From the NCBI GenBank assembly GCA_964187785.1, contig OZ076409.1:59212001-59276000 (forward strand): DNA of 64,000 bases, read 5' to 3'. This DNA comes from Amphiscolops sp. MND2022. Its lineage: Eukaryota. The notes below the pieces were generated by a model, which saw only the letters and a program-made list of their open reading frames with translations, was not told the origin of the DNA and ran no database searches. Shown piece after piece: positions 3,028 to 55,200 of this stretch (within the stretch, counting starts at the first letter, position 1; each line of letters opens with the position of its first letter). The position numbers and the translations under genes were made by a program.

Positions 3028-6000
3028 GCAAGTGCCAATGTTTGAGAAACATATGCTTGAGATATGGATGAAATTCATTGAGAGGTAAATGCCAAATTGA
3101 GTTGTTGACGATTTTGTGACACTCATTCCTACAAAGACGTAGCTTTTGTAAAAAATGATCAAAACATACCGGCTTCTGATGAAAAGTTGAACGTTATTTC
3201 GAAAAAGTTAATGGCTGAGGCTCAAGAAAAAACTTACGCGTCAAGTTGAATAAGTTTTGAGATTTTCGCAATTTTTAACGAAAGTATCAATGTGTTTATG
3301 GACCGTTTTGATACTCTCTCAGTTCCTGAAAGATGCACCATCAGACTAGAAGAGAAAGATGATAGTGCGGTGCATGTCTCTAGGTTCATCTATCCTTTTT
3401 TTCCAGGCTTACCCAGAGGTGGAAAACGTAGCCAACCCCAGTCAGATTAGGAGCAAGTCGAGGCCTTCTTGGGACACCAACTGCAGTGAGCCCAATCTCA
3501 GACCGATAAGTGAGTTCTTACCATCGTTTATTTTTTTGCATCGAATGGCTTTGGAACGAGTGTTCTACTACAGTGTAAGCCGAATATAACGACAGTTGAA
3601 TATGCACCAGAGGTGACCAGTGAATATGATCATAAGAAAAGTCCTATGTACAATCTTTACACTTGCGATAAGCAAGTGTTATGGGAAAGTGCGGGTGCTT
3701 TTTTTCCGCGCGACAACTCTCTCGTTTCAGCCCGCAAGTCGCATAGTTCAGGCGTTCGCGGTTTAGTGGTAAGATGCTTGCTTTTCAACCCAGAGGGTTC
3801 GTGTTCGAACCCGTGCGTATGCGCTATTTTTTACAAGTAATCTGAAGCAGAAGATTCTCACTTCGGCACTGTGAGACCCTCCCCTTTTCGGCTTTGTGAG
3901 ACTTGTTTTCCAAATTTTTTAAATATCCCCAGAGGTTCCTCCCTTCATTTTTTTGTTTATTTGCAACAGAACGAATGTTAAAAAATCCCAAAGGGTCCCG
4001 TCTTTCAGATTTTTCGGCACTATGAGACTGTTAAAATTCTCATTTTTTTTTCGAAAACTTTTCGAAGTCTCCAAAGGGCCCCCTTCAATTTTTTTTAATT
4101 TCGCAAAAGAATGGATGTTAAGAAATCTCAAAGAGCCCCCTTTTACAGTTTTCGGCATTGTGAGATTTTTCAAAATGAATTATTTTTGTCTTAAAATTAG
4201 GTTTTCTCAGGCCCAGCACTCTATATCCGATTTTTTTTGTAAAGACCGGTGTTTTTTTTCTTTTTGTCTAATTTGTTTTCATCGAAGCCCCCTCAATTTT
4301 TACTAGAAACCAAACGTTTTGCGAGCATAAAGGACTGCTCAAGGTTTTCGGCACTATGCGACTAACAGGAGACCAATTTTTTTCGAAAAATTTCAAAAAA
4401 AATTTCCTCAATGTTCTGTTTTTTTTAAAGGTTTTCGGTTCAGAATGAATTTTGGCGCTGTAAAATTGATGAAATTGTAACAATATCCTTTTACCTTTGG
4501 TTCTCCGTATGATATTGCTTATTTGGTTTTCTTCAAAAAGTTCGCAACTTTCTTCGCAAGTGTTTGCGAAGCACGGCTTCGCCTCTGTGTATAAATATCA
4601 TTTCGCAAAAATGGGGTTTCATAGGAAACCTTATTGTTAGGATCCTGTGAAGCGTCCCTCTTCGATTTTTAGGATTAATATCTACAAATATTACCACCTC
4701 GATGAAACAAAATGATTTCCATTATCGATTAGTAGTTTCAATTTTTTTAAAATTTCGTCATCTGAGGGAACGTTGAGAATGAAAATGCTTTCCGTAGCAA
4801 CTTGAAATAGGTCTGATTACTACAATACACACTTTTTTTTTCGCTTAATGAATTCTGTGAATATATCCTTTATATTCGCTGTAACGTGAATTTACCCTTT
4901 ATATAGGGTACTGTTTATAGATTATTCACCCTGTAACAGTCAACTTTGACATGCGCCTCTAATTAAGCGCGGCTGTCATAAGCGATTAGATTTTATAATC
5001 GGTGAAGCACTAGCCATACTTCCGTTTTCTTTTTTTCTCGAGAGTTTGGGATTTGTTAAAACTAATTTCTGTATATGGTCTTTTCGAGCTCTGCTATTCC
5101 ACGTTTCCTTGATGATTACTGAAACTCCTGTTTTTTTGTAACTGTTGCCATTGATTTCCACGTGAATGATTATTTCATCAAAGTATATTGATCTTGGATG
5201 TATCAACATTCAGTTGCCAAATTGTTTTGGTGGATTTAACTTCGGCGAACTTTTCGCAACGTTTTTTGGTCTTGGAAAATTTCAAATTCCCTGTATCATT
5301 CCACAGTTTTTCAGGCAGTGTTCGCGACACCCTTCTTAACGCTCAAGGTTTAGTGAAACTCCTGGAATCGCAAGTGTCCGAAATGGCCTCTACCATTGGC
5401 GGTCTGGGTTCTTACTCAGCCTCACTGGACCCCACTTCTCGCAGGATGATGGAGCCCGAGTCAGCTTCGATGGGCGCGGGAGGAGCTACAAGTTCGGGCA
5501 TGGCTGGCACTTCGTTGACCGAAAGCCGACTTTGTTCTAATCACTTCAAAGTTCTCAGGCAGATGATAGACGTGAGCGAGTTGTCAAGAAATGTAACCAC
5601 CAGTTTAGAACAGTGTATGCTGGTCATGTCGCAGCAAGAAGAGTATCGTTTAGGTTGGTCACATTTCTTTATCTAAGTGTGAAGGTCCTTTTCTTGCAAC
5701 ACTTGGAAAAAGGCAAGAAAGCGCAAATGATAGAGCATTTATTAGAGCATTTGGCGATCATAAGTTAATAGAATAGATTAGTTACTCTGTTTGATCTGAT
5801 CTCAACAAAGTGAGGAAACTAAGACTTGGTTGTTTGACAGAAGCTACTTGGTCATTAAGATGTTATCAATGATGTTGATGACGTGGTTCCGCTTTGGTTT
5901 GTTGAATCTGTACTAATTTGGAGTGTTTCAGAGATCTAGATTTAGAGGGCGAGTAGAATAATGATACGAATGACGAAAGGAATGATATTAACCCTGATGA

Positions 6001-9000
6001 TAAAAGAAGATGCCCGTATCTTCATAACGTCATTTGGGTTCTCTCAAATGACTCAAGCTATTGTCTATCTTCCTTTTTGTTGTTCTCCTGTGTCGTAGTA
6101 GTTTGAAGTTGGCTCACATCCATGCATGCATGCACTCTAATTCTGACGTCACTGCAAAAAGTGAAACAAGGCTCAAAAGTCCTTCATGTTTGCTAGGAAG
6201 CTGTTTTTGTGAATAAAGTGAAAAATCACTGCTGGAAAGGTTTTGAAAGAACCATTTTCAGCTGTTTTTAGTCGGCGCTTTTCTAGTGAAAAGACCCCGA
6301 CTATTACAATGGCTAGTTTTTTTTCGTCAGACTTTTCATTCATCGCGTATGTACCACTTTTTGTGAAAGATTCACTTTTACCAAAAGTAATCAGTACTTG
6401 ATTTTGAACGCATCCAAAGGCCTCTACCTTGAAATGCAAAACCCAGAAGGGTCCCCTCTTTCAATTTTTCGGTGCTATGAGACTTTCCCCGCCCCTTTTC
6501 GGCTTTGTGAGACTTTTTTCGAAATTTTTAAAGTCTTCAAAGGGCCCCCCTTCTATTTTTTTGGTGTTTTGCACCTGAATGGATGTTGAAAAAGCCTAAA
6601 GGGCCCCTTTTACATTTTTCGGCACTATGAGACTGTTAAAAATTCTCATTTTTTGTTTTTTTGGAAAATTGTAAAAAAAATTCGAAATTTTTCAATGTGT
6701 CCGAAGGGTCGCTCCTTCATTTTTTTTTGATATTTTGCAACAAATTAGATTTTCAAAAAGCCCAAAGAGTCCCCCTTTCTACAATTTTAAAAACTGCGCT
6801 TTTTGAGCCTTGAATATGGCGCCGACTTTAGACGTTCCCGTCTTGTTGCTTCTATATGGTTGCAAATTGTCAAAATTTATAAAGGGAGGTGTGAAAATAA
6901 TCAGATAATTCTGTGTCCAATAACAGGAGTCCGATTGATTTTTTTAAAGAATAATTTTCGTCACCATAATCTAGTTCTAAGAGGGTTTGTACGTTAAGTG
7001 CATTGTCATTCGAGGCTTGTTCAGAGGTAGCTATTGACAATTTTGAAGGACAGTCACGCGGGACACCCCCTGTCTAGTTGGATGTTATATGTAGTAGTTT
7101 GGAAATCAAGTCAGATCTTCCATCTAAAACGGTATTGTGGAATGCCCAATGGCAAAGCATGATAACAAAATAAGCATCAAACTTCATCAGTTTTTCTCTT
7201 GAATTATCTCTTTCGGTTTTGAACTTTCTGAAATTATGTGTAAGGAACTGATAACTTTTATTGACTAGTTTTTCTTTAGATACGTCATCTTAGATGTTAA
7301 GGTTTCAAAGTTTCAGATTCACTGTTGTGCAAAATTAACTCGATTGGTTAACTATAATTAGACTGACTGGTTTCAATTCTCTTTTCAGTTCAAGTCCATT
7401 CATAGTAACTAAACATGAGTACCATCTATCTGATATCTGTGAATTATTCTCTGCTCTTTTCGCTTGTCGTGTTTCTGCTTGGAAGGGTTTAATTTTCAGT
7501 TTCTCCTTAATGAAGATGTGGTTATTCATTTTTATACAAATTCATTGGATGCAAATTCATTTCAGTAATTGATGATTTGTTTATCACCAAATGTATTGAA
7601 AGCTTTTTCTGATATGAATTCCAAACGTCCAGGAGAAAAGTGAAAGTGAAGGTATGTCAAAGAGTACGAGGGTGTCATGAACACTCACTTCTGCAGAGCT
7701 TTTTATAGTCTCATTTTGGTTCCATGAAAATAAATATAGAAAACCGGAGAAATTACTAACACATCATATCACGAAGTTAAGCATTGCTTGTTCAAGTAAA
7801 ATTTAGTAAAGATTCACATCCCAAAAGATACGCTGTGGAGTTGTTCATTGGATAATCTTCCCACTTTCTCAGCCTACACGAAACGCCGAAAGTTGCTACA
7901 TCGGGCATATCTTGATAGATAGATGATATTCAGCATGTCTCGTAATTTTTGACCTAGAAATTTGAAAAACCCGAATGTTCGCCGCATTGAATTTCGAGGA
8001 ACTTTTTGTTCGAATCTCTGCTTTTAGAAGTTGTGTTCTTCGAATTTTCTCACGAAACATTAATCACGCTAATGAATATGAATCGCTCAGTGTTATGTTG
8101 TAACGTAGCCTTTCAGCACCATTACACGGGTTGCACTTTTTGGAACTGCGGATTTTTTCCTTTATCACTTGTAATATGTAGTTGCATTTGCCTCGTTTTA
8201 CAAATTGTTTCTATAATCCCAGTGTGGTTGCCAGTAATGAGCACCATTTCGATTTTGTCGTTTTGGTTATTACGTCGGATGCGTTCACTAAATTTTAACC
8301 CGGTTGATCTTCAGCGCTGTATACAATTTGAGCTTGAACCTATCAGTGTTATTCGCGTAACCGTTTTTATTCGGAAAGTAGCCACACCTGGATAAGAGTC
8401 TGAAATGTTTCTTTCCAGTTCAATTTCCTGTTCGAATAGAAATGAATATTTTTGTTGGTCGAGTGGTGAAAAATATATTGGGAAGTTTTTTGCGGATACA
8501 GAAATGTTATTGAGCCCCGGAGGGACCGAGTTTGATTTTAAAAACTGAAAGGTAGATTTTTAAAAATATATAATTGGTGCTGACGTAATTGCACAGACGT
8601 TCCTGGGTTGTCACTTGGTTAATTGCTTCTTGAACTTTTCATCATTTCCGCAAAATGGAAAATGCATTTATGAAGCACCTAGCAGTGAAGACAAAGTGTC
8701 TGTTCTTGAGGAAAGCTTCGAAGTGTATTTGGTTTCAGGTTACTAAGTTTGTTTTCAGTATATAAATATAACGCGACTGTTTTATAGATTTTTTCAATCC
8801 TATCTAAGTGACCAAAAAAGTTAACCATAAGCATAAAAATATGAATCTCCTCCTCAAATTTTGACATTTTACTTCGTATTACAAAGCTTTTACTTCGTGT
8901 TTTTGGTCCCCCCTTTCATTTTTCTTCGGCACTGCGAGACTTTTTTTCTCGAAAAAAAATTTTCCCCAAAGGGTCCCCCTGCATTTTTTTGACGTTTTGC

Positions 9001-12000
9001 AACAAAATGGATGTTGAAAAACTCAAAGGGTCCCCCTTTCAGTTTTTCTGCATTGTGAGACTTTAGCGCGCCACTCGGTCCTTTTTTTCGAAAAAGTTTC
9101 GATTTTCGAGTACTGTAAAAGAGAATACTTGACACTTGGAAGTCTTTTTGCTATTTTCGAGCCTTGGATATGACGCCGACTTGAGCCGGTCCCGGCTTGT
9201 TTTCAATCCACATGAACTGACCAAAATAGTTCTCAAAAGTTCTACGAAATTTTATGGTCACAAATTGAATCATTTGGCGTAGCGAACTGAACCAAAAAGG
9301 TTTTCCCTCTTTTTCCGCGTAACATACAATACCGAGAGAGACTAAAGGGTCCCCCTTTCAGTTTTTTCGGCATTGTGCGACTTTTCGGAATTTTTTTTCC
9401 ACCAAAGGGTCCCCCTTCAATTTTTTGATGTTTTGCAACCTTGGATGTTACAAAATGCGAAAGGCCCTTCTTTTAGAGGGCCAGGGGCCCGCGCTAGCGG
9501 GCACCTGGCGCCCCAGTTCTCGGTCGTTTGGGTTTTTCGCGAGTTTGATACACTTTTTGTGAGTTTGATTCTTTGAGTTTTGGACACTTTTATGTCCTTT
9601 TGCTATATTTGAGCCTTAGATATGTCGCCGACTTATGCCGTTCCCGGCTTGTTTTTAGTCGGCGCTTCATGAAGTGAAACGCGACTATTATAGTGACTCT
9701 TTTTTTTCTATCCACACGAAGAACTGACCAAAATAGTTCTTAAAAGTTCTACAAAATATTATTGCACCAAATTGCACTATTTGGCCTAGCGAACTGAACC
9801 AAAAAGTTTTTCCGCGTAACATTCCGCGTTCCCCCCTTTCATTTTTTTTTCGGCACTGCGAGACTTTTTTCGAAAAAAAAATTTCCCCAAAGGGTCCCCC
9901 CTGCATTTTTTCATGTTTTGCGACAGAATGGATGTTGAAAAACCTCAAAGGGTCCCCCCTTCAAGTTTTTCGGCATTGTGAGACTTTAGCGCGCCACTCG
10001 GTCCTTTTTTCGAAAAAGTTTCGATTTTCGAGTACTGTAAAAGAGAATACTTGACACTTGGAAGTCTTTTTGCTATTTTTGAGCCTTGGATGTGGCGCCG
10101 ACTTGGGTCGGTCCCGGCTTGTTCTAATTTTCAGTCGGCGCTTTATGAAATAAAATGCGACAATGATAGTGGCCTTTCGTCGTGTTTTTTTTTCAATCCG
10201 GTCGTAGAGACCATTTCGTGCCGAATGTCAATGTTTGTGCCGGATACCGAAATAATTCAATGGATCCTCCCGTTTTATATGTCATCCCTTTCTTTTTCAA
10301 CATGTGTATGTGGATTTCAAGCTATTTGTAACTTCAATTGCGACACCGTGTGCTTTTTTTTCGAAAATTTGAATTTTCACAAAAAAGCCCCTCTGTTTTG
10401 GCATTTTTAGTTATGAAAACTTTCAAGCCCAAAGAATCCCTTTTCGTGTTTCGTTTTGGCACTGTGCGACATCATTCACATGGTGTGCATTCAGTATTTT
10501 TGAAAGTCAATGAAGCTTTTTCAAGCCCAAAGACACAGCTTTAGATTTTTTCTACTGTAAGATTGAGAATTGTCCAAAAACAGTTCCTTTGGAGTACATT
10601 GCGCATTTTGAGCCTTGAGCAGTACGTTCCCAATTTACAGAGCGAATTACAAAGCCTGTTGAGACCAAAAGGTCCTTTTGTTTTTTTTTTGCATTGAGTC
10701 TTTTTTTCAAACTTTTGTGTGCGAGGAGCCCCTCCTCGGTTTTTCAAAATCTTTTGTTTGAGCTCAAAGTGCCATCTTTGGATATTTTTTGACACTGTGT
10801 GATTTCGAATTTTTCCGAAAAACAGCCACTTGACATATTTAAAAGACTTCCGGTTGCAAAGAAGCGATAGTCTAGTGGTAGAAAAAGCGTTTTACGAGCT
10901 TAAAACTCCTTTTTTGGCACTATGGGACTTTTTCCGAAAAGTTTGTGGTCTGAAAATTGTGTTTTTCGATGTTTCCAGTTAGAGAAAAAGCGGTCTTGGA
11001 GCCTTATAGGCAGGGTTCGCATGTTTAAAACATGCCGTGTTTAAAACGCGTTTTAAACATGTTTTAAACAGAGTTTTAAACATGACAAAAACCTTCATTT
11101 TGTTCAATTGTTTATGTATTTCAGTTATAGATATTTTCAAGTTCCTAAAATCGCAAGTAATCTTGGGTAATTTGGCGGAAGACATCAAGGAAATTGCCGA
11201 TGCGCTTCTGGTTTTTATTCGAAGTTCGGCAGGCTTGGAACCAGTTTTCAGCACCCTGGGCTTCGTCCACAATTAAACACGGAATCGACTCTCAATTGAG
11301 AAAGCCAACGAACTTGCTTTCTGTCTTTGCATTCTGCATTGAACTCAGTTTTTAGGTCGTTTTGTGTTAGACATATTTATGTGATAGATCTAGAGTTTTG
11401 AACATGTTTTAAACAAAAATTTTTAATGTTTTAAACGTTTTAAACACGATTTTTTCAAAATCTTGTTTTTTTCCGAACCCTGCTTATAGGTATCCCTTCG
11501 GGTATTTTTTGGCACTGTAAAATTTATAAAAATTTCTACAATTGTGTCCCTTAGCATATTCAAAAAACTTTGCTCTTTCTGAACCTTGATCGGACGCCGA
11601 CTTGGGTCGTTCCCGACTTATTAAAATCAGCTCGCACCTACCTAGCCTTTTGTTTTTCGAGAAAAGACTGCACGCCCTCCATTGTATTTGTTCAGTATTG
11701 GATCTGGCTTGCCTGGAACTGTTACAATCTTGATGTACAAATGTTTTTGTTTCCAAATTTGAACCGTTCAATCTGAAATAACATCCTTTTGAGCTCTTAT
11801 TAAAGTTCTTTTGAAATGGGGGGAGAGGGGTACTGGCTTTATACAAGTTGCTTTCAAAAAGATATGAAATGGTGCCAGCTTGCCTGCATAAATTCTTGAA
11901 GTTGAAAGCATGTTGAAAACGATGAAACATGCGGCAAAACATGCTCCTTAATGCATATCAACAGTTGAACGTAAGTGCACTGCTGATGGTCAGTTCAATT

Positions 12001-15000
12001 AGTAGCAATGTAATGATAAGAATTGATCCTTTCTCCATATAAACTTTGGAGGGTTAATGCTTTTGACACATGAACATCAGCTTCTTTCTATTCTACGATT
12101 GGTGATATACAGAAGTATGTATGTATGTATACAGTAGTGCTACTTAACAATTACGACTTCGGAGTTTCCTAACTTGTATAATTTGCTCTTACATAATTAA
12201 CGAAATCAATCTGACATCTTTCGATTTATGACATTTCATTTTTTATTGATTATTGTTCCGCTTTTCCATTAAAAAATGATCAAACTGCAAACTTACTTGT
12301 GATATACCATTTCGATTTTTGAGTGGTGGGTTTTATTTGAATGGTTCTTTTTCCTGTTTCCAGTCTGTTACTGTTTTTGTCGCCGCTCAAATACTCTCAC
12401 GTTTTTGTAAAATCGCGAATTGACTACCGAATTGTACTATCCCTAATCTGGAAAATGAACGTTATAATTGCGACTACAACCCCTTCCCTCGATTCACCCC
12501 TCAAGCTCTCAACATTCCGCACCAGAAACTTTTTTGTCGGATTGGAATTCCAGACTTCCGGCTCAAGTGCAAAATGGTATTTACAAAGTTTGCATTTGTC
12601 TTTAGTTTTCAGCGGGGGTTCTACATCGATCTGCCATAAACTACTGAAACATTGTCTGTATACAGACAAAACTCCTGCCACGTTTGGAAGCAGGCGAATG
12701 TGGATTCGAATCCCGCTCAGAGGGCCAATATTTTTGAACGTTTTGAAACCAAGCCGTACTGATAGTTTTCAAATAACGTATCTAACGAAAACTACATTCA
12801 AATTTTTGACGGTATATGAGGTTGTATGACGTTATAGAAGTTGGTGACTCAAGTCAAGAAAGTCATTGAAGGTCGTTCTGAAGGTCGCTTTCTTTCGGTA
12901 AGTACTATTTCTTCACTTTGCCAAAGTTGGATATGCATGAACTAATTTTCAAATCTGTCGGATATTGTTTCAATTAGATTAATTCGTCACTTTTCTCGTC
13001 GAATCATTGTGGCTGGGAGTGGTCAATTGAGGATCAAAGAGCGCGGTTAAAGTCAATCTAAGATTGCCGACAAATTTATGAAGTGGGGTTCTTTGGGCTC
13101 GAAAAACGCTTCTCTAACTGAAAACGTCTAAAACCCCATTTGTTTGGAAGAAAATTGCACAGTGACGAAAAAACTCCAAACATGAAAAGTTGTCATGTGC
13201 GGGATTCGAACCCATGACTTCCTGCTTGCAAAGCACCCATCCTTGTCACTAGGGTAAGAGGTGGGATCTCGGCTCCAAACTTTGAAAAGTGGCCTTTTCA
13301 GTGTGAGGTCTGTGGTCTGACTAAAACATTTGCCACTGTGAGGCAGCACTTTTTGTGAGAAGCGCTGACTAAAAACCCCGTTCTGCAAAGCATTTTTAGT
13401 TGGCGCTTTCATTAATATTTCTGCTTTAGCAGGAATGTTATTGAAATCTCAAAATGTCTACTTTTTTTCAGTACAATTCTTGGCACGATACTGAATAATT
13501 CAGATATTTTGTTCGGCAGTGACTATAAGCGTGAGAAATAAGTTTCTCAAGCTGCCGACGACAATTCAATTCTCGTGCGATGGAACGAGCGAGTGGTAAT
13601 TATGCATTCGTGAGCTGACGTCATTGAGATGAAGCGAGAGAATGTTCGTAATTGTGCTTTCGTTGCGCCGAGTTATTGAGATGAAGCGAATGAGTGTTAA
13701 TTATACTTTCGCGGAGAGCTTCGCCGTATTCAAATATATATTTGCTTTAGTCCGAGATTTACTACTATTACTACTAAAAGACTGAATTTATTCTAGAAAG
13801 AAATACTTGATGATATTTACATGCACAGATTTTTTAAACAACAGATTTAACGGTATAAACTGGTTGTGATTAATTGTGCGCTAAATAATGATTAAACAGG
13901 AGTGTATTGGTATTGCAGATATGATTCTTCCATTAATAAAAGAAAAGCAGAAATAGTAGTGTGCCCCTATTTTTTAATAAAAGAGCCCGCTTATTACAGT
14001 CACTCGTTTTTTCTTTAAGACCATCTCGAATGCGACAAAAACTTTGTTCAATTTGTTCAACTAAACGATTACCTGGAAACCGCATCAAAGTTAAGGGCAA
14101 GTTATGGGCTTTTTAAACGTAACAGAAAAAACCGGACGAGACTAAAGGGTTCCCTTTCAATTTTTCTGGCACTGTGTGACTTTTTTTGTCTCCAAAGGGT
14201 CCCATCTTCGATTTTATTGAAGTCCCCCTTTGGGAGCAATCCCTTCAGACGGGTTGATTAATCGAAATGTTTTTTTTGTAGTGTGAGTTGTATTGTGTTG
14301 TATATCTAATCATCCTCGACCATCTGTAAATCCATAAGAATAATATCCGGAATAAAGGGCTATATCCGAACTTTTGACGTTATATCTGAACTATATTGCG
14401 TTTTATTAAGGAAGAGGCGGAGGTTCGAAAACTGGAGTGTTTCACGAAAACGTCCTTCGCATATTTTAAAAACTGCGCTTTTTGAGCCTTAGATATAGCG
14501 CCAACTTGAGACGTTCCCGTCTTGTTTTTTAGTCGGCGCTTTTCTTGAAAAAGCCGACTATAGTCATGGCTTTTCGTCAGTGTTTTTTCGATACACCAGA
14601 AGTGACCAAAATAGTTCTACAAGTTCTACAAAATTTTATGGTGTTCAATTGAACCATTTGGCCTAGCGGACAAAATCAAAAAAGATTTTCCTTTTTTTCC
14701 GCGTAACATACAATACCGGGCGAGACTAAAGGGTTTGAGTTTTTTCAACATTGTGGGACATTTTTTTCCGAAAAAAATTATCCCCAAAGGGTCCCCCTTC
14801 AATTTGTTCGGAGTTTTGCGACAGAATGGATGTTGAAAAATCCCAAAGGGTCTCCCCTTTCAGTTTTTTTCGGCATTGTGAGACTTTCAAAAAAATCATA
14901 AAAGGGTACCCAACTCACCAATACTTTGACATTTTGAAGTCCTGTTTCTATTTTTGAGCCTTAGATATGGCGCCGACTTGGGCCGGTCCCGGTTTGTTTT

Positions 15001-34569: not shown

Positions 34570-34789
34570 ATGACGGCTTCTCTCATACTTTCCTTCGAGG
34601 GCAGAGGTAAGAAGTTAGACTCGGCTGATGACGCAAAGGAATTTGCGACCGAGATTGAAGCCAGTGGAGATATTGAGGTTCTGCAGATGAATGGCAACAC
34701 TGTTGGTCAGGAGGCTGCTGAGGTACTCAGAGAGTGTCTTAAACAGAAAGGATCCCTCAAGAGATTGATATGGCACGACATATTTACTG
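34570..34789 (+). CDS. RANGAP1: RanGAP1 coding exon 1
   Basis: ATG at 34570; ends HDIFT G|gttggt. Confidence 0.9.
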
Positions 34790-41822: not shown

Positions 41823-42420
41823 AACAAGCCGGGACCGGTCCAAGTCGGCGTCATATCCAAGGCTCAAAAATAGCAAAAAGACTTCCAAGTGTCAAGTATT
41901 CTTTTACAGTACTCGAAAAACGAAAATTTTACGAAAAAAATTTTTCGAAAAAAATTACATCCGGGCCCCTGGCGCGCTGAAAGGAGGACACTTCCGAAAT
42001 TGTCAACATTTTTGTCGCAGTTGAGGGGGTTTTGTCGCAAAACATCAAAAATTTGAAGGGGGAAAATGTTTTTATTTTCGGAAAAAAACTGATAGGGATT
42101 TTCCAACATTCATTCTGTCGCAAAACAGCAAAAAAACTGAAGGGGGGGCCCTTTGAGGAAAAAAAATTTCCGGAAAAAAGTCTCGCAGTGCCGAAAAAAA
42201 TTGGAAGGGGCGACCCTTTGGTCTCACCGGGTATGGTATGTCACGCGGGAAAACAGGAAAAACCTTTCTGGTTCAATTCGCTAGACCAAATAGTGCAATT
42301 TGGTGCAATAATATTTTGTAAAACTTTTGTAGAACTATTTTGGTCAGTTCAGGTGGTCTTAAAAAAACACTGACGAAAAGCCATGACTATAGTCGACTCG
42401 AAGAAAAGCGCCGACTAAAA
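41823..42420 (-). mobile_element. HINE-like family A copy
   Basis: AACAAGCCGGGACCGGTCCAAGTCGGCG at the left; GCGCCGACTAAAA at the right. Confidence 0.8.
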
Positions 42421-43695
42421 AGCGAGAGCAGCTGAGCTGACTACTACTGATAATAATTGAACAGTCCCTTGAAAAGGGAAAGTAGGAAAATAAAATTAAT
42501 TATGCGTGCGAGAAGTTTTTCTCGGTATTGACGCCCTGAGTTTCAGAGTTTCAAAATTCAGTTCGCAGAATTTTGAAGTTCTTGACGCCTTTTGATCCTT
42601 CAATGGGGCACCGACTTCTCCGCATGAAGTTACGAGGACTCTATGGAAGCAAAATAAAATGTGAGACAATATGCGATGTAATCTGTATTTTCACTATTTC
42701 CACTGTGCTTATACATTTTTACTTCATCGGTACTTTCCAATGCCTATCATTGGTCGTCAGTGGTATCGGCCGTCACAAGTTACACGGGACTCCTATTGAA
42801 TAGAGACAGCAGTCCAGATCTTTAAAAGGTATCAGAACGAGGTCAGATGGGAAGACATTTGCCGTACCAAAAATCTAAAACTTGATCGGTGTTTTTTGTT
42901 CAATTTTTGTATGAAGGGAAGGAAAATCAAATTTTGTGATTGATTTGAAACTGATGAGCGAAAGTGTGTTAATTTATTTGTTTTGTGTTTCTCATTTTTT
43001 CGATTGAATTCAATTTCATTAGAATAAGTTGTGAATTTAAATGTGTCATTTTGAGCACTTCGATCAATAATGTATTCGACAGCTGCTTAGCAGGTGATTT
43101 TTGCGATGGCGGAAAATGAGCTGTGTTCATCGGAGAGAGCATCGTTGTTTTTAACGTTTTTCACGCCACTATTTTGTCTGAACTATTTCATTTAACTTAA
43201 CAAGAACGTTCTTCAAATAATAATTTCATTTGCTTTAAAGTTTGAGTCCCGGACAATTCAAAACCAGGGTTTTTGGTTTAAATGTATAGTAGAATCATAG
43301 CTTTTTGCCAATATAAACAAACGACAGATTAATTCAAACCATAAGTATAACTGTAGCGCCCCAGTTACTGTATAACTGATAGTGGTGTTCTAAAATAATG
43401 CATCTTAGTTGCGTAAAATATCAATTTTCAGTGGAAAAATACATTGAAATCTCGAATAAGAGAAATTCCTCCGGGTGCTTGTGAGTGGGTGGGGATTAAA
43501 AACATGGTCCCTTATGTTTTTCAATTATTCCAACATGCTCCGAGATATTCAAATCTAAAAAAAATGTTTGCAGACGATTTCTTAATCACAGTACTAAAGA
43601 TGATTTTTTTTCCTGAAGTTCATTTTGTAGAAAAGTGAAACATTTTGAGGGTTATCAGTGGATGATAAACATCTTTCAAGTTATTTGGAGCAAAC

Positions 43696-44128
43696 CAGAG
43701 GTGTGATCGCTAACAATTTTATCGCTAATCGCTAACATCGCTAATGGCTTGATTCCATCGCTATCGCTACAATAAAATAGGTTCGCTAACGCTATCGCTA
43801 ATTAAAAAATCTGATTTTCAAGATATACATTTAAAAGTTTCAGAATTGTACTTAAAAAGTAACAAATTTTGATTTTTTTGAGCAAAATCTGATTCGCCTT
43901 GGGTTCTGTACATTGCCGGGCACCCTGAATAACCATTCGCAAGAAAATAAAAGCCAAGCCACAGCCAATATGTGTCAAGTTATTCGCATTAAATTATTGC
44001 ATTACTTAATTTTGGATTATTTAGCGAATAAAAATGTTCGCTAACGATTGAATTTGTCGCTAACTATCGCTATCGCTAATTCATGCTGAATTGTCGCTAA
44101 CGCTACCGCTATCGCTGTCACACCTCTG
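43696..44128. mobile_element. hAT-type MITE
   Basis: 11-bp TIR CAGAGGTGTGA/TCACACCTCTG; TSD GAGCAAAC/TAGCAAAC (7 of 8); ATCGCTA subterminal repeats at both ends. Confidence 0.85.
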
Positions 44129-45821
44129 TAGCAAACATGACATCAAGCACTTGAAGAACTTCTCATCGAGTTTGCGGCTTCTGTTAGAAGAATATTTCAT
44201 CTCTAATACGATTCTTATAATTTGTTTCGAAAGCCCTATGCTGATGATTCCCTTACATGAGCTGAATCTCCATTTTTCACCTTTTCAGTTGTGACATGCC
44301 GCCTCAGTCATCGAATATATTGCCAGGCCATCATCACTCGTCCTTATCTTTTTCCTCCCGTGACCTTAGCTGACCTCTGACCTCAAGTTATGTTGACCTC
44401 AAATTCACTCTTCCAACAAATTACTCACTCAACAGCTTTTATTTTTTTGCTCGACAAATTCACATGCAGGGATGTTATAAGCTTTGATCATTTGAGAATC
44501 TTATTGCTAGAAACATTAGCTTTAAATGCGATGAGATTGAGAGAATGAACAATCCTGTCATGTTGTGCATTTTGGAACGTTTTTGGTATCAAATATTTTT
44601 GGTAAAAATTTCACATTGCCGGTTTAGGTATTTTTCGAATATCAATAACTTTATGCTTTTCTAATGATGTGCTGCAGTCAAAATTTACATCAAAATTAAA
44701 GTAGCCCTTCAATTTTCAAATTTTCCTACGACTTCAAATCTTCGCCTTTAAGTTTGAAGCTTATGTTCAAGTGACGAATAATCAGGCCATTCCAAGCTTG
44801 AAGTTGTTCGAAAAATGCAAATTATTTGCGAACATTGATCAAATAGCAAGTACGTGATTCATAGAAAACTTTATCCATAAAAAATTGCCAAAAATCAATG
44901 GACTTGAAAGAACGACTGATGCTTTTTGTAAATGTTTCTAGATTTCCGCAATTATTGAAGAATTCCATTTATATATTCGAAACTAAAAACAGCATGAAAT
45001 CAGTTTTTAATTCCAAGTAAAGAACGGATGACTTCAAGTGGAATTTTTTAAGCGTTTGTTGGCTAAGTAAAATTGATCTTCGCTAGCCAAATAGAGTGAA
45101 GTGCGTCACCTCTTCGATTGCGAAGTAGCTGCTGTTGATGTCAAGATTGCATTAAGTCGATGTTTCTTGGTCAAAATACTATCTATTCAAAGTTTCGAAT
45201 TATTTTTAGACAAAAAACTCCAACTTAACAGGAATTTTTATTTTGCCATTAGTGTTAATTTTCTGGAGACCAAGCATTCCTTTGGTATAAGTCCTTAGTT
45301 GAGCTCGAATATACAGTGGTAATTGCTTAAAAACAACCCTCTCCGTGACTTTTTCTGAGTTATGTTTAGCCATTATTGTTTTTAAGGGATAGTGCATAAT
45401 AACTATCAGCCGGTGCATCCACTCAGAGTTATTAAGCTTTGTTATTAGAGCAAGTGTTATTTTATCCAATTAGCACTGTAGTTGCATATAGTCTATTGTA
45501 TTGTTCAACCGCCCCGGTCTTCTAAGTTTATAGGGTATTGCGCTTTAAAAAAGTATATTTGAACAAATCACGATGAAAACGTTATCACTTTTATATCAGA
45601 CAGAATTCAACGAGGTTTTGTTTTGTTATCTAATTGTCGAAGATCGGTCAGATGGCAAATATTTTCAGTTGAAATATCCTAACTTGAAATCTAGATAAAA
45701 TGGAATCAAAAGAGTCGCGCGTCCTTCTTTCGGGATGCTTTGCGCCCCTCCTGGTCGGCCTTCATCGAAATAGTCGCCGAACTACTAATTACTCGTCGCT
45801 GCGTTTAGAGCTGTGTGTCGG

Positions 45822-45832
45822 TGCCACGTATC
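45822..45832 (+). promoter_or_regulatory. Candidate XBP1/CREB3/ATF6-type UPR element upstream of EDEM3
   Basis: TGCCACGTATC, ~220 bp upstream of the ATG in a CpG-richer segment; compare the consensus GCCACGTCATC. Confidence 0.35.
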
Positions 45833-46044
45833 GGTATGTGAACTAAGCTAATCGCGATTATATAGTTTAGGAGATTTTTTACTTACGTGATCTTGACCTG
45901 ACACTCGAAAGTTATGTTACGATAATTTTGAAAAGTGTAAGTAAAAATCTCGGTCTCAATCCATTTTTATTCATTTTATAAATGCATCCCTGCTCACAGA
46001 GTCTTCCAGTGCTGACGTTTTTTCTGCTCAGAAACATAAGCAAA

Positions 46045-46246
46045 ATGAAGCTTCCTACTTCGGTGCTGTTCCCTTTGATACTACTAGCATGTAGTTTTGG
46101 GCCAAACCTGTTCCCTAGTGTAGAGGCTCTTAAGAAAACGAAGCAGCAACTGAGACTGGAGGTCCAGGAGATGATTCACCACGCATATGACAACTACATG
46201 CAGAATGCGTACCCGGGCGACGAACTCATGCCATTGTCTTGCCAAG
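46045..46246 (+). CDS. EDEM3: EDEM3 coding exon 1
   Basis: Signal peptide plus [16 protein letters not shown]. Confidence 0.9.
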
Positions 46247-49200
46247 GTTGGTTCCTTACTCAGAAGACTTCAAGACGCAAACATCTCAAATCGGCATCCG
46301 TTTAAGGCTCAATGAGCACGAAGTCGTTCCTATTTGTAATAGAGCTGTTTTTGATGAAAAAGCCGAAAAACTTCGCATTTCCGAAAGATAGCAAGAGGGA
46401 AGGGCTTTGGATGTTAATTTTTGTAAACACCTCAATAAGGTAGACAAAAGGAGTGCCTTTTGGATACTTTGTAATTCTTCTACGAGAAGTAGTAAATATG
46501 TATAACAAGTTGGGAACGGCATAAGTTCCCGATCTCAATCCAACTTGCTTAAACTTCAAAGAGCAAAGTCTTTTAATTTAAAAAAAGCTGTTTCTGAGAA
46601 AATTCTGAAAAATCTCACTCGGCCGAAGAATACCCAAAAAGAACGGATCCATTGGGCACATAAAGAGCTTTTTTCTAACTAAAAACATGGAAGAAAAAAC
46701 TTTCCCTTTTGCACACTTTTGTCGGCTTTAGATCTTATGCTAAGCTAAAAGTCTGTCGAAAAGTGGATCTCTAATCAATACTTTTTAAAACGTAGTTTTG
46801 CTCAGCGAACCTAAAACTGATATGTGCTCTTGTGACTCAACTCTATGTCGCGTTTAAAAGGTCGGGTGCGAGGTATGACCTCAAGCAGGGGCGACATTGA
46901 CGATGCGCTGGGCAATTTTGCACTGACACTGATTGACTCCCTGGACACACTGGCAGTGATAGGGGACCTGGACAGGTTCGAATCCGGGGTCAGAAAGGTC
47001 ATCGAAGACGTCAAGTTCGACTCAGACTTGGTCGTTTCTGTGTTCGAGACCAACATTCGTGTTTTAGGGGGATTAGTCAGTGCGCATGTAATGTCAAAGT
47101 TAGTTATGAAAATTCATTTTCAAGACCTCTGAAATGTTTCAGCTCTTCGAATTACTGTTGCCAATTTTTTAAAGCTGTTTTAGCCTTTCTTTGAACAGTT
47201 AAAGAAGTTGGTTTAAAAAGGCGATTCTTTGGCGCGCTCATGAACCGCTCATGTCGAGAAATTCAATTTTGACTCAAAAAACGTCCGGAAAAACGCCCTT
47301 TAACTTCATTTTGTAGCTGTACTAAAAGCTAGATGTACTTTTTGGGTCTATAGTTCATGTCAAAACTTCTTAAAAGGCATTAGTTTTGTCAAGTAGTTCC
47401 TGCTAACCGACTTGTTTTTGGTTTTAGAATGATGAAACACGAAGGCATAGCCATGTCGTGGTACAAAGACGAGCTTCTATATATGGGCATAGAACTGGCC
47501 AATCGGCTGTTGCCTGCGTTCAACACCTCTACAGGGGTTCCCCATTCCAGGGTCAATCTCAAGTACGGAGTGCACCATCCAAAGGTCAGTCATTGTCATC
47601 AACACCTTTGAAAACGTTCAATATTGCGATACTGCGAGCTCTTAAAATTAAGATATTTAATAAATCTCGACCCTCCGTTTTTAGGTAACAACTCTTGAAA
47701 AAAGACTGAAGTTTTTCACCAAAACCTCGACTTTAATGCCAATTTCTTTCCGACTTCGAATCATTCATAACAAGCAGGGGTCCGTTTCATTTTCAAAATA
47801 TTAGTAACCTGCCACACTGAATGACCTTTATACCATAATCATGTTTTACTGTTACTTTATACTTTATCAGTTTCATATGAATTCCGTTTAACAGTTTAAA
47901 AAATCATTGAATGGCAATCACTATTAAAGGCTGGTATCAAGCATGATGGCACGACATGCACTGCGTGTGCCGGAACGTTCCTTTTGGAGTTTGCAGCTTT
48001 AAGTCGCCTCATGGGAGACTCCATCTACGAAACAAAAGCGAGAACTGCTATGGACTACCTTTGGTCCAAGAGAAGTTTAACTTCGGATCTTGTGGGCACC
48101 ATTCTCAACGTCAAAACTGGGGAATGGATTAAGAAACACGCTGGTCTCGGGGCAGGTATTGACTCCTATTACGAGTATATTTTCAAGTATTATATACTAC
48201 AAGGAGATCAAAGCTACCTGGATCGATTCAATAAACATTACGATGCCATCAAAAAATACATCCTGGAGGGACCTTTGTTGTTGAATGTCAACATGCAGAA
48301 ACCTGAAATTGTGTACCGCTCGCATCTTGACGCACTCAGTGCTTTTTGGCCCGCTATTCAGGTTAGTGTTTATGCAGTTAGTGAAAAATGTTGTTGATTT
48401 CAAAAATATCGTTTAATGTTCGATCAAAACATCAAATGTGCACCCACGTATTAAATTGGAAGAAAATGTTTTTGAGCTGCTCAAACTTTTGGTTGTTTTC
48501 TGATTTGTTTGTGAAATCCCATTTTCGAAACCGGAAAGTAGATTCTATGGCATGTAGCTTTTGTCAGTGAAAAATTCCTCCATCTAATTCAAAATTGGAT
48601 TAAAGTAGAACCTTAGCGCGGCATTTCAGGTGCTGAAGGGCGATCTGAAGTCTGCGATTGAAGTACATGAAGTGTTCTACCAAGTTATCAAGCAACACAA
48701 GTTCTTGCCTGAAGCCTTCAATTCTCAATTCAAGACAGTTTGGAATCACCACCCCATCAGACCCGAGTTTGTTGAGAGCACTTACTTCCTGTACAGGGCC
48801 ACCGGGGATACTCATTATTTAGACGTGGCTGAATACATGGTCGAAGCAATACAGAATTTCACTAGGTAGTCATCAGTCAAATCGGTTATGGTCCACTTTC
48901 TTGTTCATTTGTTCAACTTGAACTGCGGATGTTCAAAACATACTCGAAACGTCAGAACCTCAAAAACATGCTAAGGATTCCCCTTTGGCTATCTTGGTGT
49001 TTTTAACTTGGATTTTTTGGAACTGAGACTTTTTGCGGACTTTTTTGAGACATTGGGGGAGCAATGATGTAGTGGTTAGAGCATTCGGCCTTTACTGGGC
49101 TGTAGCAGGTTCGAATCTCTCTCAACTCACCATTGTTGGTCCTTAAGCAAGTCCTTCATCCCTAGCTTAGTGGTATGGTCAATGACAAAAATTAACGCAT

Positions 49201-52200
49201 TTGGTAGAGAAAAGCAAAAATAAAAGGAGCAACGGTGAGCAGCCAGACCTTTGTGACTTTGAGCAAGTCACTTTGAAACCACAGCTTCAAGCCCACCATT
49301 GCTTGACCACTTGGCTGCATATATGGTACCATAGCTTTCTATGGGGAGATAGTATCCGAAATGGCGCCGACTTAGAAAAGCAGAACTGCTTATTCGGCGT
49401 CCACCCCCGGTAATGGGGAAATTAACTACTCCGACTTTTGCAACAGAATGGATGTTAAAAAATCCCCATAGGGCCCCCCTTTCTGCATTTTTCGGCACTA
49501 TGACACCGTTCAAAAGGTCTCCAAAGGGTCCCTAATTTTTTGATATTTTGCAACAGGAAGGATATTTGAAAAAAATCCCACACGGTCCCCCTTTTTAGCG
49601 CACCAGGTGTTTTGAAACTTTGAGTTTTTCATGAAAAAAGTCCTGAGCATATTTTAAAAAGTTAAAAAGTATGCTGTTTTTGAGCCTCAGGTATTGCGCC
49701 GACTTGAGACGTTACGGTTTTGTTATTTATACGGTACGGAACAGATCTCATGCTTTATTTGATTACTTTTATTCAGACTAGTTCAAGAGCAGGGTTGGCC
49801 ATTTTATGTTTTAAATTAATTTTAAACAAAACAAAAAAGTTTGAAAACATGTTTAAAATTCCCTCGGACAAAGACAGAAAAACAAGCTTGAAAGAATGAT
49901 CATATTCAATATCATTCAAATATCGCATCACAAAAGTAAGTTTTTCAACTTTCTGAACTCCAAGCCTGTTGCGAGTGCCAATTTCAGTAATCCTTCGAGA
50001 TAGATTTTCATTTTCACTTGACATTTCATTAATTTGCTCATTTTAGACGCCTACTTGTCTGTCTACAAGGATTACATCTAAATGAAATAAAAAACCTTTG
50101 ATGGGATTGATTTTTATTCAAAATAAAGCAGTGTTTTAAAACTGTTTTAAAACGTGTTTTAAAACACCCATGTTTTATTTTGGCCAACCCTGTTCGAAAG
50201 TTTTATTTTCCATTTTAGGTTTCTCATTAATCGCAAACTTCTCAATCTGCATTTTTTGTCATGATCAAATGTTTTTAGCCGCGGAGTACTGTTCATCGTG
50301 GATTTTGAATGGATGCAAAGCTGTTGATAAAGATGATACCGGAGAAGTATTTTGCATTGAAAAAATTTTAATCTATCGAAGAGCAAGCAATTGAAGATTG
50401 AATGGGTTTGTTTTCCACTGTTTTTTGGGAGAGAAATGACAGGTTATCGCTTTGAAGACCATGTTTTTCCGCGATGGCAACTATTCCTTCCTTTTTTATG
50501 CAATTTGTGTGAAGTTGTATTTTGCATGCAGCAAAAAAACTATCTTTTCGATTAAGTTGACCGATGGCTAATTTCTTTTAGAGTTCCTTGTGGGTTTGCG
50601 GCCATTTCGAACGTCCTGACATTCAAGAAAGAGGATCGATTTGATTCTTTCGTGTTGGCAGAGACTTTCAAATATTTGTACCTCATCTTCACAAGTGACG
50701 ACGAACTTTGGTTCGATGTTGAGAACTTTGTTTTCACCACAGAAGCCCACCTCATTCCTCTCAATTGGAAGGCCGACTACTTAGCAGGTACGATCGGAGA
50801 ATTCTGCTCTGAGAATAAAAGTCAGGATTCTGACATCGCTAAATTTAACCGCTGATCGCTAAGCCACTAATTTCGCAATCGCTGATCAAGAAGGGTTTTT
50901 AGTCGGCGCTTCATGAAGTGAAACTCGACTATTCTAGTGATTTTTTTTTCAATCCACACGAACTGACCACAATAGTTCTTAAAAGTTCTACGATACTTTA
51001 AGGTGTCAAATTGGACCATTTGGCCTGAGGTACTTAACCAAAAGAGAACAAAAGTCAGCATAACATACAATAACGGGCTAGACTAAAGGGTCCCCCTTTT
51101 CAGTTTTTTCCGGCATTGAGACATTTTTTCAATAAAATCACCAAGGGTCCCCTTCAATTTTTTTTGATGTTTTGCGACAGAAATGTTGAAAAATTCGAAA
51201 GGGTCCTCCTTTTAGCGCGCCAATTCGGTCCAACTTTTGGGTTTTCCGGGTACTGTAAAAGAGGATACTTGATATTTTGCTATTTTTGATGCCTTTTGCT
51301 ATTTTTGAGCCTTAGATATGGCGCCGACTTATGCCGTTCCCGGCTTGTTTCATTTTCAGTTGATTTACAAACACATAATTGAAGTAATTTTTTGGAAGTA
51401 AGGTCTTTTTGGAGACAAGACTGATTTCCAAAAAGTGGCTGTTTTCTATGGATAGAACTAGAACTTCGTTTACAGATAACTCAGCGCTTTCAAAGAACTC
51501 ATGCCAATCCCGATGGTTTTTGGTATATTTTATACTGTCTCCGTATATGCCACAGTTTTGTGTGCACTGTTGAAAATCGCTGTTAAAACAGTTATCGCTA
51601 ACTCCAATTCGCTTCGAAAGTCTTCCGCTGAGCCAAATTGCTCAACCATTTGTTGGAAGTGTTTTTTATTTACCCTAATTTTCAATTTAGTGTTAAGATC
51701 TCTGAGTTTCTATTTAAAAATAACGTCGGGGAGTAAGTATCTCTTTCAACTGATCTTTAACGTTGTCTATCAAATGGTATCGTAACAAAATCATCAAATC
51801 ATGTTAACATAAATGCGACAGAAATCAACTAGAGTTTGTAAATAGTATTTAAACAACTCTCTGTCTAAAGTATTTCAGGTTATGAAATGTGGCAGTTTTA
51901 TATTGGCATTCCACATCCCCCTCCAGGTAAAATGGGCTATGTATGGCTGTTTGAGTTTGAATGTCCGTATCATACGGTTCGTTTGTAGATTCTCTGTAAT
52001 TGACCGTATATTTCGGTTGTCCAGTTCCTCGTTACTGTTTGTCTCCAGTTGCTCCGGTTGGTTGATCTGTTTTTCCTGTAAAATACAATTGTTACTTGTC
52101 TTCTTTTTTTTGTTATTAGTATAGTATGGGATACCGCCTAATTTTTCGGGTTGTTTGGCATAGGGTAAACTTTTTGATTTTCTCACAGTTAGGTGGGATT

Positions 52201-55200
52201 CGTCAAATGGTTCGTTCATTTTCATATCTGTTTCTGGGGTTAGGTTTGCTTCTTTTGACAGGAGTTGCAGCTCGTCATCCAAGTTGGTGTGCATTGGTTT
52301 TCTTTCGCTAGTATTGTAGCACTGGAAATCATCATCTGACACCATGCTCAGATCGAGTTCCACAGGTTTGCTTGCTGATTTGCCGGGACTAGTAAATTGT
52401 CCTCTCTCGTTACTCGGTTGCTCTTTTCTTTTGAGCCAATCATCGCTGTTCTCGGTGTTTTCTGGACACGGCGGTTCTTTTCTGCGGTAACCGCAAATTG
52501 TTGTGTCCCGGTCGTCTTTGAGCAGGATGGCTGGTAAATTGCCCGTCGAGAGTCTTGTATTGATTCTCTTCTTTGGTGTGGCTGTGTTCTGAAAAGGTAT
52601 TTGGTTAGAAATTAGTTTCCTGTGTATGATTGTTTTTGTCGGTGGTGATGGTGTGCTTGGTACCAGAGACTGCAATCTGCGGTTTGTTATCGAATTTACT
52701 ACCGAGTGAGCTTTTCGTATGGACTTTGTCGAAAAAAGTAAACGGTAAGGTGGGATTTTTGTTGTTACTTACCGTATTTGACGGTTTTTTGTTTTGGGTG
52801 AAAGCCATCCCCTCCGATACTTCGGGTCGTTGCTTTTCTTTTTGGACATCACCAGGTGGTCCGTGATTTCTCCGGCGGAATGGCGGGTAATGTAGACTGA
52901 CAAGTCTTTGGAGTCAACTGAAGTAGTATTTTTCAGGTTGGATAATTTAGTTCCCGGAATGCAGTTCGAAAGGAGTTTTCTTCGTTTCTGCATGTGTGGT
53001 GAATCGGAGAACATACAGTGTATCATTTAGGCTTTCCCGTAAATTCTGTATTTCTTCTAAATTTGCTTTTATCAGATGCTTCAGTGATTGGATGGTTCTC
53101 TCAACCAATCCTGTACCGGTATGTAGATTTTGAATGCCGTAATCACGGATTGTTGTATTCGCTGCAAAAGCTTTTATATTCTTTTGAAATAGAGGCACTG
53201 CCTTTATCTGATTTAATTTTTCTCGGTACGCCGTATACGTTTATATATTCCCGTAGGAATGTTGTAACCGTATCGTGGTTTGTGTTTTTGCATATTTAAG
53301 CTGCCGGCAACTGCTATTTGTCTACGGCAACTAAGATCTGAGTTTCTACTTAAAAACAACGTCGGGGAGTAAGTATCTCTTTCAACTGATCTTTAACGTT
53401 GTCTATAAAACGAATGGTATCGTAACAAACTCATCAAATGATGTAAACATAAATGCGACAGAAATCAATTAGAGTTTATATGTAAATAGTATTTAAACAA
53501 CTCTGTCTAAAGTATTTCAGGTTATGAAATGTGGCAGTTTGACCTTGGCTTTTCACATTTAGTGATGTTTCAAGTTTGGGAAATGGTAACTAAGTCTCTT
53601 TTAAAAAAATGCCATAGTGTAGTTTTATTAGCAATTGGTAGAACAATAAAAGTGGTTTCTTAGCATGGAGATAAGCTGCTTTTGTATAGAAAAAGTGCCA
53701 AAAAGATGTACTTTCGAACTTTATGAGCAAGTTTTCAATGTATGTTGCCAAAACAATTAGATCCCGGAAAAATCCGTTGCTTAGCGGGCTTCTTGTTTTC
53801 ATATAATTAACATTGCTCATAAAAATACCAAATAGTATTTAAAATAATCAATATTGAAAAGAACCAGAAATTCGAACGCTATTATTCTTCAAACGAATAT
53901 TCCAGGTGTTGTTGCACATGACGAAGTCAATGTGCATTGCAGTCCAGCTAAGTAAGTTTTTTTTCCACTATAGTCAACTTCATAATGAGCGCCTTTTAGA
54001 AAAAAGCCAAAACCCCAGAGAGATTCGAACCTGCAGCCTCCCGATTGCACGGCATAAGTGTTGACCACTGTGCCATGGGGACGTTATTGAACAAAGTTGA
54101 ACTGTTGAATATATACGCATGCGATTTTAATAATATATACGCATATTAAAATAATCGATGTCTTCGTCATGTGTTGCGAAGCACCGCTTCGCCTCTGTGT
54201 TTTAGTTTTATTTTGATCTGCAATTGTGTTATTAATTAAACTGAAATTAATCTAGTCTTGAGTAACGTTTTGATTAGTTATAATTTGAACTTACCAACGT
54301 CGATTTTCTCACATAGACTTTGGAAACATTTTGAAAACATTCTCGTTAGATGTTAATTTTCACAACTGATATGACAATATTAGAGCATAATTCTGGTGTT
54401 TCGTCTTGCAGGCAATTCAAGCCACCACAGTTTTTTCGACAGCAGATTCGAGCAGCCGTCGCCGCAAGCACCTATTGTTGGCGGAGACAAAGACGATTTC
54501 TACACTTTATCAACTTCTTACGACAATACCTGTCAGAATTTCGATTTGATGAACAACCCATTTTACGCATTGGACGTCAGGAAACCTCTATGGGGCTTTG
54601 TTATGAAAGATGCACATAAGGTCAATACTCAGACTCCCTTGTGTTCGAATAGTGACTCCTTTTTCGATGCACCTACGGTTACTGTGTCTTCGGCTGCTTT
54701 CGGGGATGCATATTTCGATATAACTGTGAGAAAGATCTTGTTTTCAAAACAAAGTCTTTTATGGGAAATTCATTGGAAGTTTTTTTCAATCTACGATTTG
54801 ATTTCAATGAGAGAATGAATGCCAATGCTGGTTCAATTTTTAAACTTTGAGACTTTTGTTTTCATTTACTTTCCAACAAATTTCCGACTAATTTCATAAA
54901 GCAAAAATTGCCAAATTCATCCCTTCTTCGATTCAGTGGCACATTTATTTCGACCCCCAAAGATTTCAAGCCCATTTCTGCCCAAGAGTTTGATCACGCG
55001 AACTCTCAGCACGTGTCAATTCTTTCCATGATGGGCATTCAAATTGTTCAACAACTCGACGGGTCTCTGCAACTGAGCCACAGGTAATTTCAACAACTCA
55101 GTCACATTTTTCTAGAAATGGTTTAGCTGGGACATTACAGTAAACCCTCGATTATCCGCCACTCGATTATCCACCAACTTTGGTCATCCGCCACAAATCT

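What the first reader, a model, noticed from the sequence alone, without database searches (positions are those of the whole stretch)
3659..54200. Second HINE family whose subTIR pair has been rewritten in concert
Seen: the elements at 3659-4590 and 53914-54200 share the 3' end TGCGAAGCAC(G/C)GCTTCGCCTCTGTGT. Their subTIRs differ (ACACTTGCGA/TCGCAAGTGT versus CACATGACGAAG/CTTCGTCATGTG), yet each is complementary to its own partner 250-900 bp away, and each has a matching 5' partial IR. Inference: long-range end-to-end pairing is needed for mobilisation, so there is a structural code shared across end families.
Basis: partly seen in the sequence, partly recalled or inferred. Interest (0 to 1): 0.7.

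Follow-up and report, generated by a model that had tools for sequence, protein, structure and literature searches.

The report
Two Helentron families with family-specific ends
The two repeats are short copies of two related rolling-circle jumping genes (Helentrons), each with its own transposase and its own pair of matching end sequences, a layout already described in flies and fungi; the matching ends are likely signals read by each transposase, and the proposed need for long-range DNA pairing remains untested.

Summary
Both elements are real, and the shared 3' end occurs 3,493 times in the genome. Two families account for it: A (1,188 exact ends) and B (1,983). In 98 sampled ends, 41 were A5'-A3', 35 were B5'-B3', none was mixed, and 22 had no 5' end in view. 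Each family has its own long partner encoding Rep-helicase-endonuclease. The two transposases are only 41% identical and are weakly supported sisters. So these are two HINE (non-autonomous Helentron) families, not one family rewritten. Family-specific subTIRs with conserved layout are published (DINE-1, PMC2374699 Table 1; Fusarium FoHeli1/2, PMC5148889). The inference that long-range pairing is needed is not shown. Folding favours it for B (p about 0.98) but not for A (0.02-0.12). None of 19 A copies mutated at a diagnostic site was compensated. Binding of both ends by each family's transposase would explain the covariation equally well. No earlier scan note on this topic was found. New members of a known kind; low interest.

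The parts
3657..4590 (+). Family A HINE copy (about 930 nt), non-autonomous Helentron
   Evidence: Ends match autonomous A elements: first ~180 nt 86-87% identical and last ~95-105 nt 84-86% identical; 1,188 exact 3' ends in the genome
3659..3668 (+). A 5' subTIR (10 nt), preceded by TT
   Evidence: TT nearly invariant (50 of 50 and 49 of 50)
3672..3679 (+). A 5' partial inverted repeat; closes an 8-bp hairpin with the subTIR
   Evidence: fold -8.2 kcal/mol, z -6.2; pair probability 0.8-0.98 in the whole element
3752..3823 (+). tRNA-like segment inside A (weak)
   Evidence: Rfam tRNA 18.6 bits, E 0.72, below the gathering score; ARAGORN finds nothing; also present in autonomous A copies
3874..4170 (+). 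Central repeats shared with the abundant D family of the window
   Evidence: repeat families D6, D7, D20
4554..4563 (+). A 3' subTIR, exact complement of 3659-3668
4566..4590 (+). Shared 3' terminus: 7-bp hairpin plus tail
53912..54200 (+). Family B HINE copy (about 290 nt), deletion derivative of a B Helentron
   Evidence: first 233 nt 94.9% and last 56 nt 100% identical to the long B element at G000:C8:17.64 Mb; 1,983 exact 3' ends
53915..53926 (+). B 5' subTIR (12 nt)
53926..53934 (+). B 5' partial inverted repeat; closes a hairpin with a GAA loop and one bulge
   Evidence: fold -7.3 kcal/mol, z -2.4
54022..54075 (-). Pol III A-box/B-box-like motifs, antisense to the element (weak)
   Evidence: motif scan with recalled consensus; no Rfam match
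54162..54173 (+). B 3' subTIR, exact complement of 53915-53926
54176..54200 (+). Shared 3' terminus: 7-bp hairpin plus tail, one loop base differs from A

Best explanation
The two elements are non-autonomous copies of two distinct Helentron (HLE2) families whose long partners encode different Rep-helicase-endonuclease proteins, and each family's subTIR is likely an end signal read by its own transposase at both ends. Shown: family membership, copy numbers, partners, T-rich insertion, and that the two or so changes separating the A and B motifs are mirrored in the 5' subTIR and 3' subTIR and, less exactly, in the 5' partial IR. Inferred: A and B descend from one ancestor; the 3' hairpin and tail stayed nearly fixed as the cleavage or termination signal; the subTIR drifted with each transposase. 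The two arms would stay complementary because they are the same signal on opposite strands, while the inner arm keeps the 5' hairpin. Base pairing between arms may occur in the displaced single strand or at a circle junction, where the arms would be about 30 nt apart, but it is not needed to explain the pattern.
For: Six of seven A-type transposase loci examined have both A ends. The protein has UCH, DUF6570, Helitron_like_N, PIF1 and a weak endonuclease match. One long B-ended element (8.4 kb) holds a broken Rep-Hel-EN in the same orientation. A and B Rep regions are mutual best hits at 41% identity. Two further families have the same layout with other subTIRs beside other transposases: F2 (470 ends, 37% identity to A) and D (35,165 ends, 28%). 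No mixed A/B element in 76 ends with a 5' partner. In the 930-nt A copy the local 5' hairpin outcompetes end pairing, and the cognate two-strand gain for A (-4.9) and D (-2.9 kcal/mol) is no better than some cross-family controls (-5.6, -3.5). Literature: families are defined by subTIR (PMC4067079), and subTIRs differ among DINE-1 types (PMC2374699).
Against: Protein binding is not tested by anything here. B and F2 ends are predicted to pair strongly and specifically (-9.2 and -11.9 kcal/mol; p about 0.98 for B). Natural B-B and D-D head-to-tail junctions fold with the subTIRs paired. In all four families the 3' subTIR complement runs past the 5' stem into unpaired bases, as a strand-displacement switch would need. 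The B partner is a single broken copy, so its link to B ends rests on one locus. Sisterhood of A and B has support of only 80/84 with a long-branch warning.
Confidence: 0.62

Rival explanations
1. End pairing is functionally required. In the displaced single strand or circle junction the 3' subTIR displaces the 5' partial IR and forms a panhandle that presents the terminal hairpin and junction to the transposase; sequence matters less than complementarity.
For: Perfect 9-12 bp complementarity in four families with four sequences. Complement extends into the 5' loop in all four, and cofolding is net favourable in all seven cognate pairs. B whole-element and B-B, D-D junction folds show the stem.
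Against: A whole-element pairing probability is 0.02-0.12. None of the 9 loci with an A 3' end joined to an A 5' end folds with the subTIRs paired (most carry mutations). Margins for A and D do not beat cross controls. No compensated variant among 19 mutated A copies. Complementarity is equally expected from two binding sites.
Confidence: 0.25
2. The arms are kept alike passively, by template switching or gene conversion between ends during rolling-circle copying or repair, with only one end motif under direct selection.
For: The same changes, including an indel, appear in up to three motif copies between A and B. Ends are adjacent in head-to-tail junctions.
Against: No recent conversion event seen: 0 of 19 copies mutated at one 5' site carry the matching change in the inner arm, and 0 of 16 with a visible 3' end carry it there. 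These are mostly dead copies, so the test is weak.
Confidence: 0.08
3. The shared 3' end comes from end swapping, or both families were moved by the A transposase, rather than from descent with separate transposases.
For: A 24-nt end with one difference is strikingly conserved for 41% protein identity. A has several near-intact copies and B only one broken one. Tree support is weak.
Against: The subTIRs are homologous at both ends, not only at the 3' end. The B long element's ends are about as young as the B HINEs (95-100% identity; median 97.9% to the family majority), so a B transposase existed during the burst. A and B are mutual best hits.
Confidence: 0.05

Closest known systems
HINE / Helentron families (Thomas, Vadnagara, Pritham 2014, PMC4067079; abstract, passages and Discussion read)
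   Same: SubTIRs, 3' stem-loop, T-rich insertion with variable T, autonomous partner with Rep/Helicase/endonuclease sharing both ends; families defined by subTIR sequence.
   Different: SubTIR of A is 10 nt (12-15 nt in the mite families). The protease domain here matches UCH, not OTU. These families were not found described for this genome (one search listed no relevant paper).
Drosophila DINE-1 (Yang and Barbash 2008, PMC2374699; passages with Table 1 and one Discussion section read)
   Same: 5' subTIR with adjacent partial IR, 3' subTIR followed by a hairpin, central repeats. Five subTIRs across 11 species and three subtypes with different subTIRs in D. willistoni. The authors already argue that structure is conserved despite sequence change.
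   Different: There the 3' stem sequence differs among species; here A and B keep the same stem while the subTIR differs. No microsatellite block seen here.
Fusarium FoHeli1/FoHeli2, Helitron2-type (Chellapan 2016, PMC5148889; passages read)
   Same: Sister subgroups with different 5' hairpins and asymmetric inverted repeats but a shared 3' terminus; GAA-loop 5' hairpins; PCR evidence of joined ends.
   Different: Fungal elements of 5-6 kb with another terminal motif and target.
HLE2 group (Li et al. 2024, PMC11417382; Introduction and passages read)
   Same: Short inverted repeats, 3' stem-loop, T-T insertion, EN domain; left ends more diverse than right ends.
   Different: None of kind.

Membership tests
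HINE / Helentron (HLE2) | Subterminal inverted repeats, near the 5' end and some 35-60 nt from the 3' end | tested here: met
   10 and 12 nt exact; 3' arm starts 37-39 nt from the end
HINE / Helentron (HLE2) | Short stem-loop near the 3' end | tested here: met
   7-bp stem; MFE in B, competes with an alternative hairpin in A
HINE / Helentron (HLE2) | 5' partial IR or palindromic subTIR | tested here: met
   5' hairpins, z -6.2 and -2.4
HINE / Helentron (HLE2) | Insertion in T-rich sites with no target duplication other than T | tested here: met
   T follows the end in 56 of 56; TT precedes in 49-50 of 50; paralogous empty sites show about two extra T at the three clearest loci, L016, L031, L040
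HINE / Helentron (HLE2) | Autonomous partner with Rep, helicase and endonuclease sharing both termini | tested here: met
   A: 6 of 7 loci with both ends. B: 1 broken copy
HINE / Helentron (HLE2) | Circular single-strand intermediate | not testable with these tools
   Only genomic head-to-tail junctions seen; they have another explanation
One Helentron family (Thomas 2014 rule) | At least 11 identical subTIR bases between A and B | tested here: not met
   SubTIRs differ by a substitution and an indel; hence two families
Canonical Helitron (HLE1) | 5' TC, 3' CTRR, insertion between A and T | tested here: not met
   Ends and flanks differ
MITE of a cut-and-paste transposon | Terminal inverted repeats at both ends and a DDE partner | tested here: not met
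   3' repeat is subterminal and partners are Rep-helicases; a TT duplication reading of the two extra T is not formally excluded

The most novel reading that the evidence does not exclude
Helentron ends work as a sequence-free DNA switch: in the single-stranded intermediate the 3' subTIR invades the 5' hairpin through its loop, and the resulting panhandle, not the subTIR sequence, licenses cleavage at the shared 3' hairpin. One transposase would then move any element with complementary arms, and A and B would cross-mobilise.
Probability: 0.2. Interest if true: 0.55.

Novelty: new member of a known kind. Interest (0 to 1): 0.17.

Why it matters
As found, it adds two families to the repeat catalogue of one animal genome and repeats a published pattern. 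Its use is as test material. The A/B pair shares the 3' terminus but differs in subTIR and transposase, and A has near-intact coding copies, so it suits an end-swap assay. My searches found no paper testing how Helentron subTIRs act (listings only; 0 papers held all three terms). A positive pairing result would define end recognition for the HLE2 group.

Tried and rejected
Third family with the same 3' end: of the first 100 loci, 87 were exact A or B. The other 13 are mutated A or B at the 3' side, and for six of them the 5' end was not fetched. Subfamily lacking the 5' hairpin (L004): rejected, it is a B copy interrupted by another element with an 8-bp duplication. A5'-B3' chimera (L228): rejected, B is nested in A. 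Amplified mismatched or compensated A subfamily at the diagnostic 5' site: none; 19 copies, the 13 put in a tree are scattered. Head-to-tail junctions as evidence on pairing: 21 matches, 14 independent (B3'-A5' 7, A3'-A5' 4, B3'-B5' 3). The mixed ones are not one amplified composite. D ends also precede A or B 5' ends (41 of 49 matches by my reading), and A/B ends precede a D 5' end once. Reuse of a T-rich target, with younger B landing at the 5' boundary of older A, explains them, so I do not count them for or against pairing. Ends of seven other transposase loci were not found de novo. Automatic alignment of the short ends was uninformative; the homology comes from blastn and direct reading. 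The first pair-probability output (end) was mis-indexed and was redone. The B protein was not scanned against Pfam; its domains rest on tblastn to A and on reading the ORFs.

Full report
Observation. Both elements are present as described. Each has TT, a 5' subTIR, an inner partial inverted repeat, an interior, the complementary 3' subTIR, a 2-nt spacer, a 7-bp hairpin and a short tail. The end motif has 2 matches in the window against 0 in shuffles and 3,493 in the 1.07-Gb genome. Exact B ends number 1,983 and exact A ends 1,188. The loop base tracks family, with 3 exceptions of the other family's base among the 200 rows listed. With mismatches allowed, 98 ends gave 41 A-A, 35 B-B, 0 mixed and 22 without a 5' end in view.

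What it is. A Pfam search found 152 Helitron-like matches. Fetching flanks showed A ends around a Rep-helicase-endonuclease gene at 6 of 7 A-type loci, giving elements of about 6-14 kb; the seventh showed only the 3' end. Pfam gives UCH, DUF6570, Helitron_like_N, PIF1 and a sub-threshold endonuclease hit. B ends flank a broken gene of the same order at G000:C8:17.64 Mb, a single copy at DNA level. The window's B copy is its deletion derivative: 233 nt at 94.9% and 56 nt at 100%. A and B Rep regions are 41% identical and mutual best hits. They group as sisters at 80/84 support with a long-branch warning, in a tree of 17 rows kept from 21 loci sought. Outside the last 41 nt the two HINEs share nothing detectable. 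Flanks are T-rich with an A-rich 3' side, and the three clearest empty sites show about two extra T. Two more families share the layout with other subTIRs next to other transposases: F2 (470 ends) and D (35,165 ends). B is somewhat younger: median identity to the family majority is 97.9% against 91.6%, and B is nested inside A at L020/L021 and L228.

How it likely works. By family knowledge (PMC4067079, PMC11417382) the HUH Rep nicks, the helicase displaces one strand, the 3' hairpin marks the end, and the endonuclease may nick a T-rich target; these steps are inferred, not shown here. The A and B subTIRs are homologous by direct reading, differing by about one substitution and one indel. The changes are mirrored at both ends and, less exactly, in the 5' inner arm. 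Since each motif goes with a different transposase, the simplest reading is a family-specific signal present on opposite strands at the two ends, as for ordinary terminal inverted repeats (recalled knowledge). Pairing is the main rival. For it: B and F2 ends cofold well (-9.2, -11.9 kcal/mol), the complement extends into the 5' loop in all four families, the whole B copy pairs at p about 0.98, and B-B and D-D junctions fold as panhandles. Against it: in A the local hairpin wins (pairing 0.02-0.12), A and D margins do not beat cross-family controls, and autonomous arms are kilobases apart. If pairing occurs it is more likely short-range at a circle junction than long-range. Within-family tests gave no compensation: 0 of 19 in the inner arm, 0 of 16 at the 3' arm. 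These are mostly dead copies, so this neither proves nor excludes pairing. Head-to-tail junctions, 7 of 14 of them mixed, are explained by target reuse and were set aside.

Comparison with what is known. Yang and Barbash 2008 (PMC2374699; passages, Table 1, one section) list different subTIRs across Drosophila species and three subtypes in D. willistoni, and argue function from conserved structure. Thomas et al. 2014 (PMC4067079; abstract, passages, Discussion) define Helentron families by subTIR and note related elements inserting next to one another. Chellapan et al. 2016 (PMC5148889; passages) show sister subgroups with different inverted repeats and one 3' terminus. Li et al. 2024 (PMC11417382; passages, Introduction) give the HLE2 definition. 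Supplements were not read; they may list further end sequences. Searches for a test of subTIR function returned nothing relevant in listings, nor did one for tRNA-like interiors. The library lacks most subscription journals. Earlier scan notes held nothing on this topic.

Verdict. Real, correctly classed as HINE, already explained at the level of kind. New members of a known kind; interest 0.17. The open part is how subTIRs act. The sequence-free switch reading has about 20% probability and would merit about 0.55.

Noticed in passing
window 655-59920, e.g. 9652-10125, 14526-15000: A third, far more abundant HINE family (D; about 22 3' ends in the window, 35,165 in the genome) with a 9-bp subTIR and an autonomous partner at G000:C1:34.70-34.72 Mb. 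Its terminal hairpin stem covaries (A-T or C-G) in 98 of the 100 rows listed.
   Followed up: partly
window about 13380-14520: One D copy has a matching change in both subTIR arms. Both are CpG transitions, so independent decay is possible.
   Followed up: no
window 3752-3823 (+) and 54022-54075 (-): Both families carry weak tRNA-like or Pol III box-like segments 90-170 nt inside the 5' end, in opposite orientations, also present in the long partners. Below thresholds; no paper found.
   Followed up: partly
L172-L192: 21 head-to-tail junctions, 14 independent, half of them B 3' end joined to A 5' end; eight have exactly two T at the joint. Per end about 3-4 times more frequent than after D ends (rough).
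   Followed up: partly
L004:1780-2330: A roughly 550-nt element with subterminal inverted repeats and an 8-bp target duplication (hAT-like by recalled rule) inserted into a B 5' hairpin.
   Followed up: no
L105/L106 (G000:C5:69.43 Mb), L193-L212: Family F2: same end layout, 470 ends, many in tandem arrays of repeated 3' ends and with head-to-tail joints.
   Followed up: partly
L151/L152 (G000:C12:19.47 Mb): Old, decayed A-like Helentron (pieces about 40-75% identical) with a degenerate A-type 3' end; 5' end not found.
   Followed up: partly
G000:C1:73.4-76.5 Mb and others: A cluster of many long open frames (about 2,375 aa) with weak Helitron_like_N matches; ends not found.
   Followed up: no
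3' flanks of A and B copies: The 3' flank consensus is T then an A-rich run, like the target of APE-type endonucleases (recalled), which fits the proposal that the endonuclease picks the target.
   Followed up: partly
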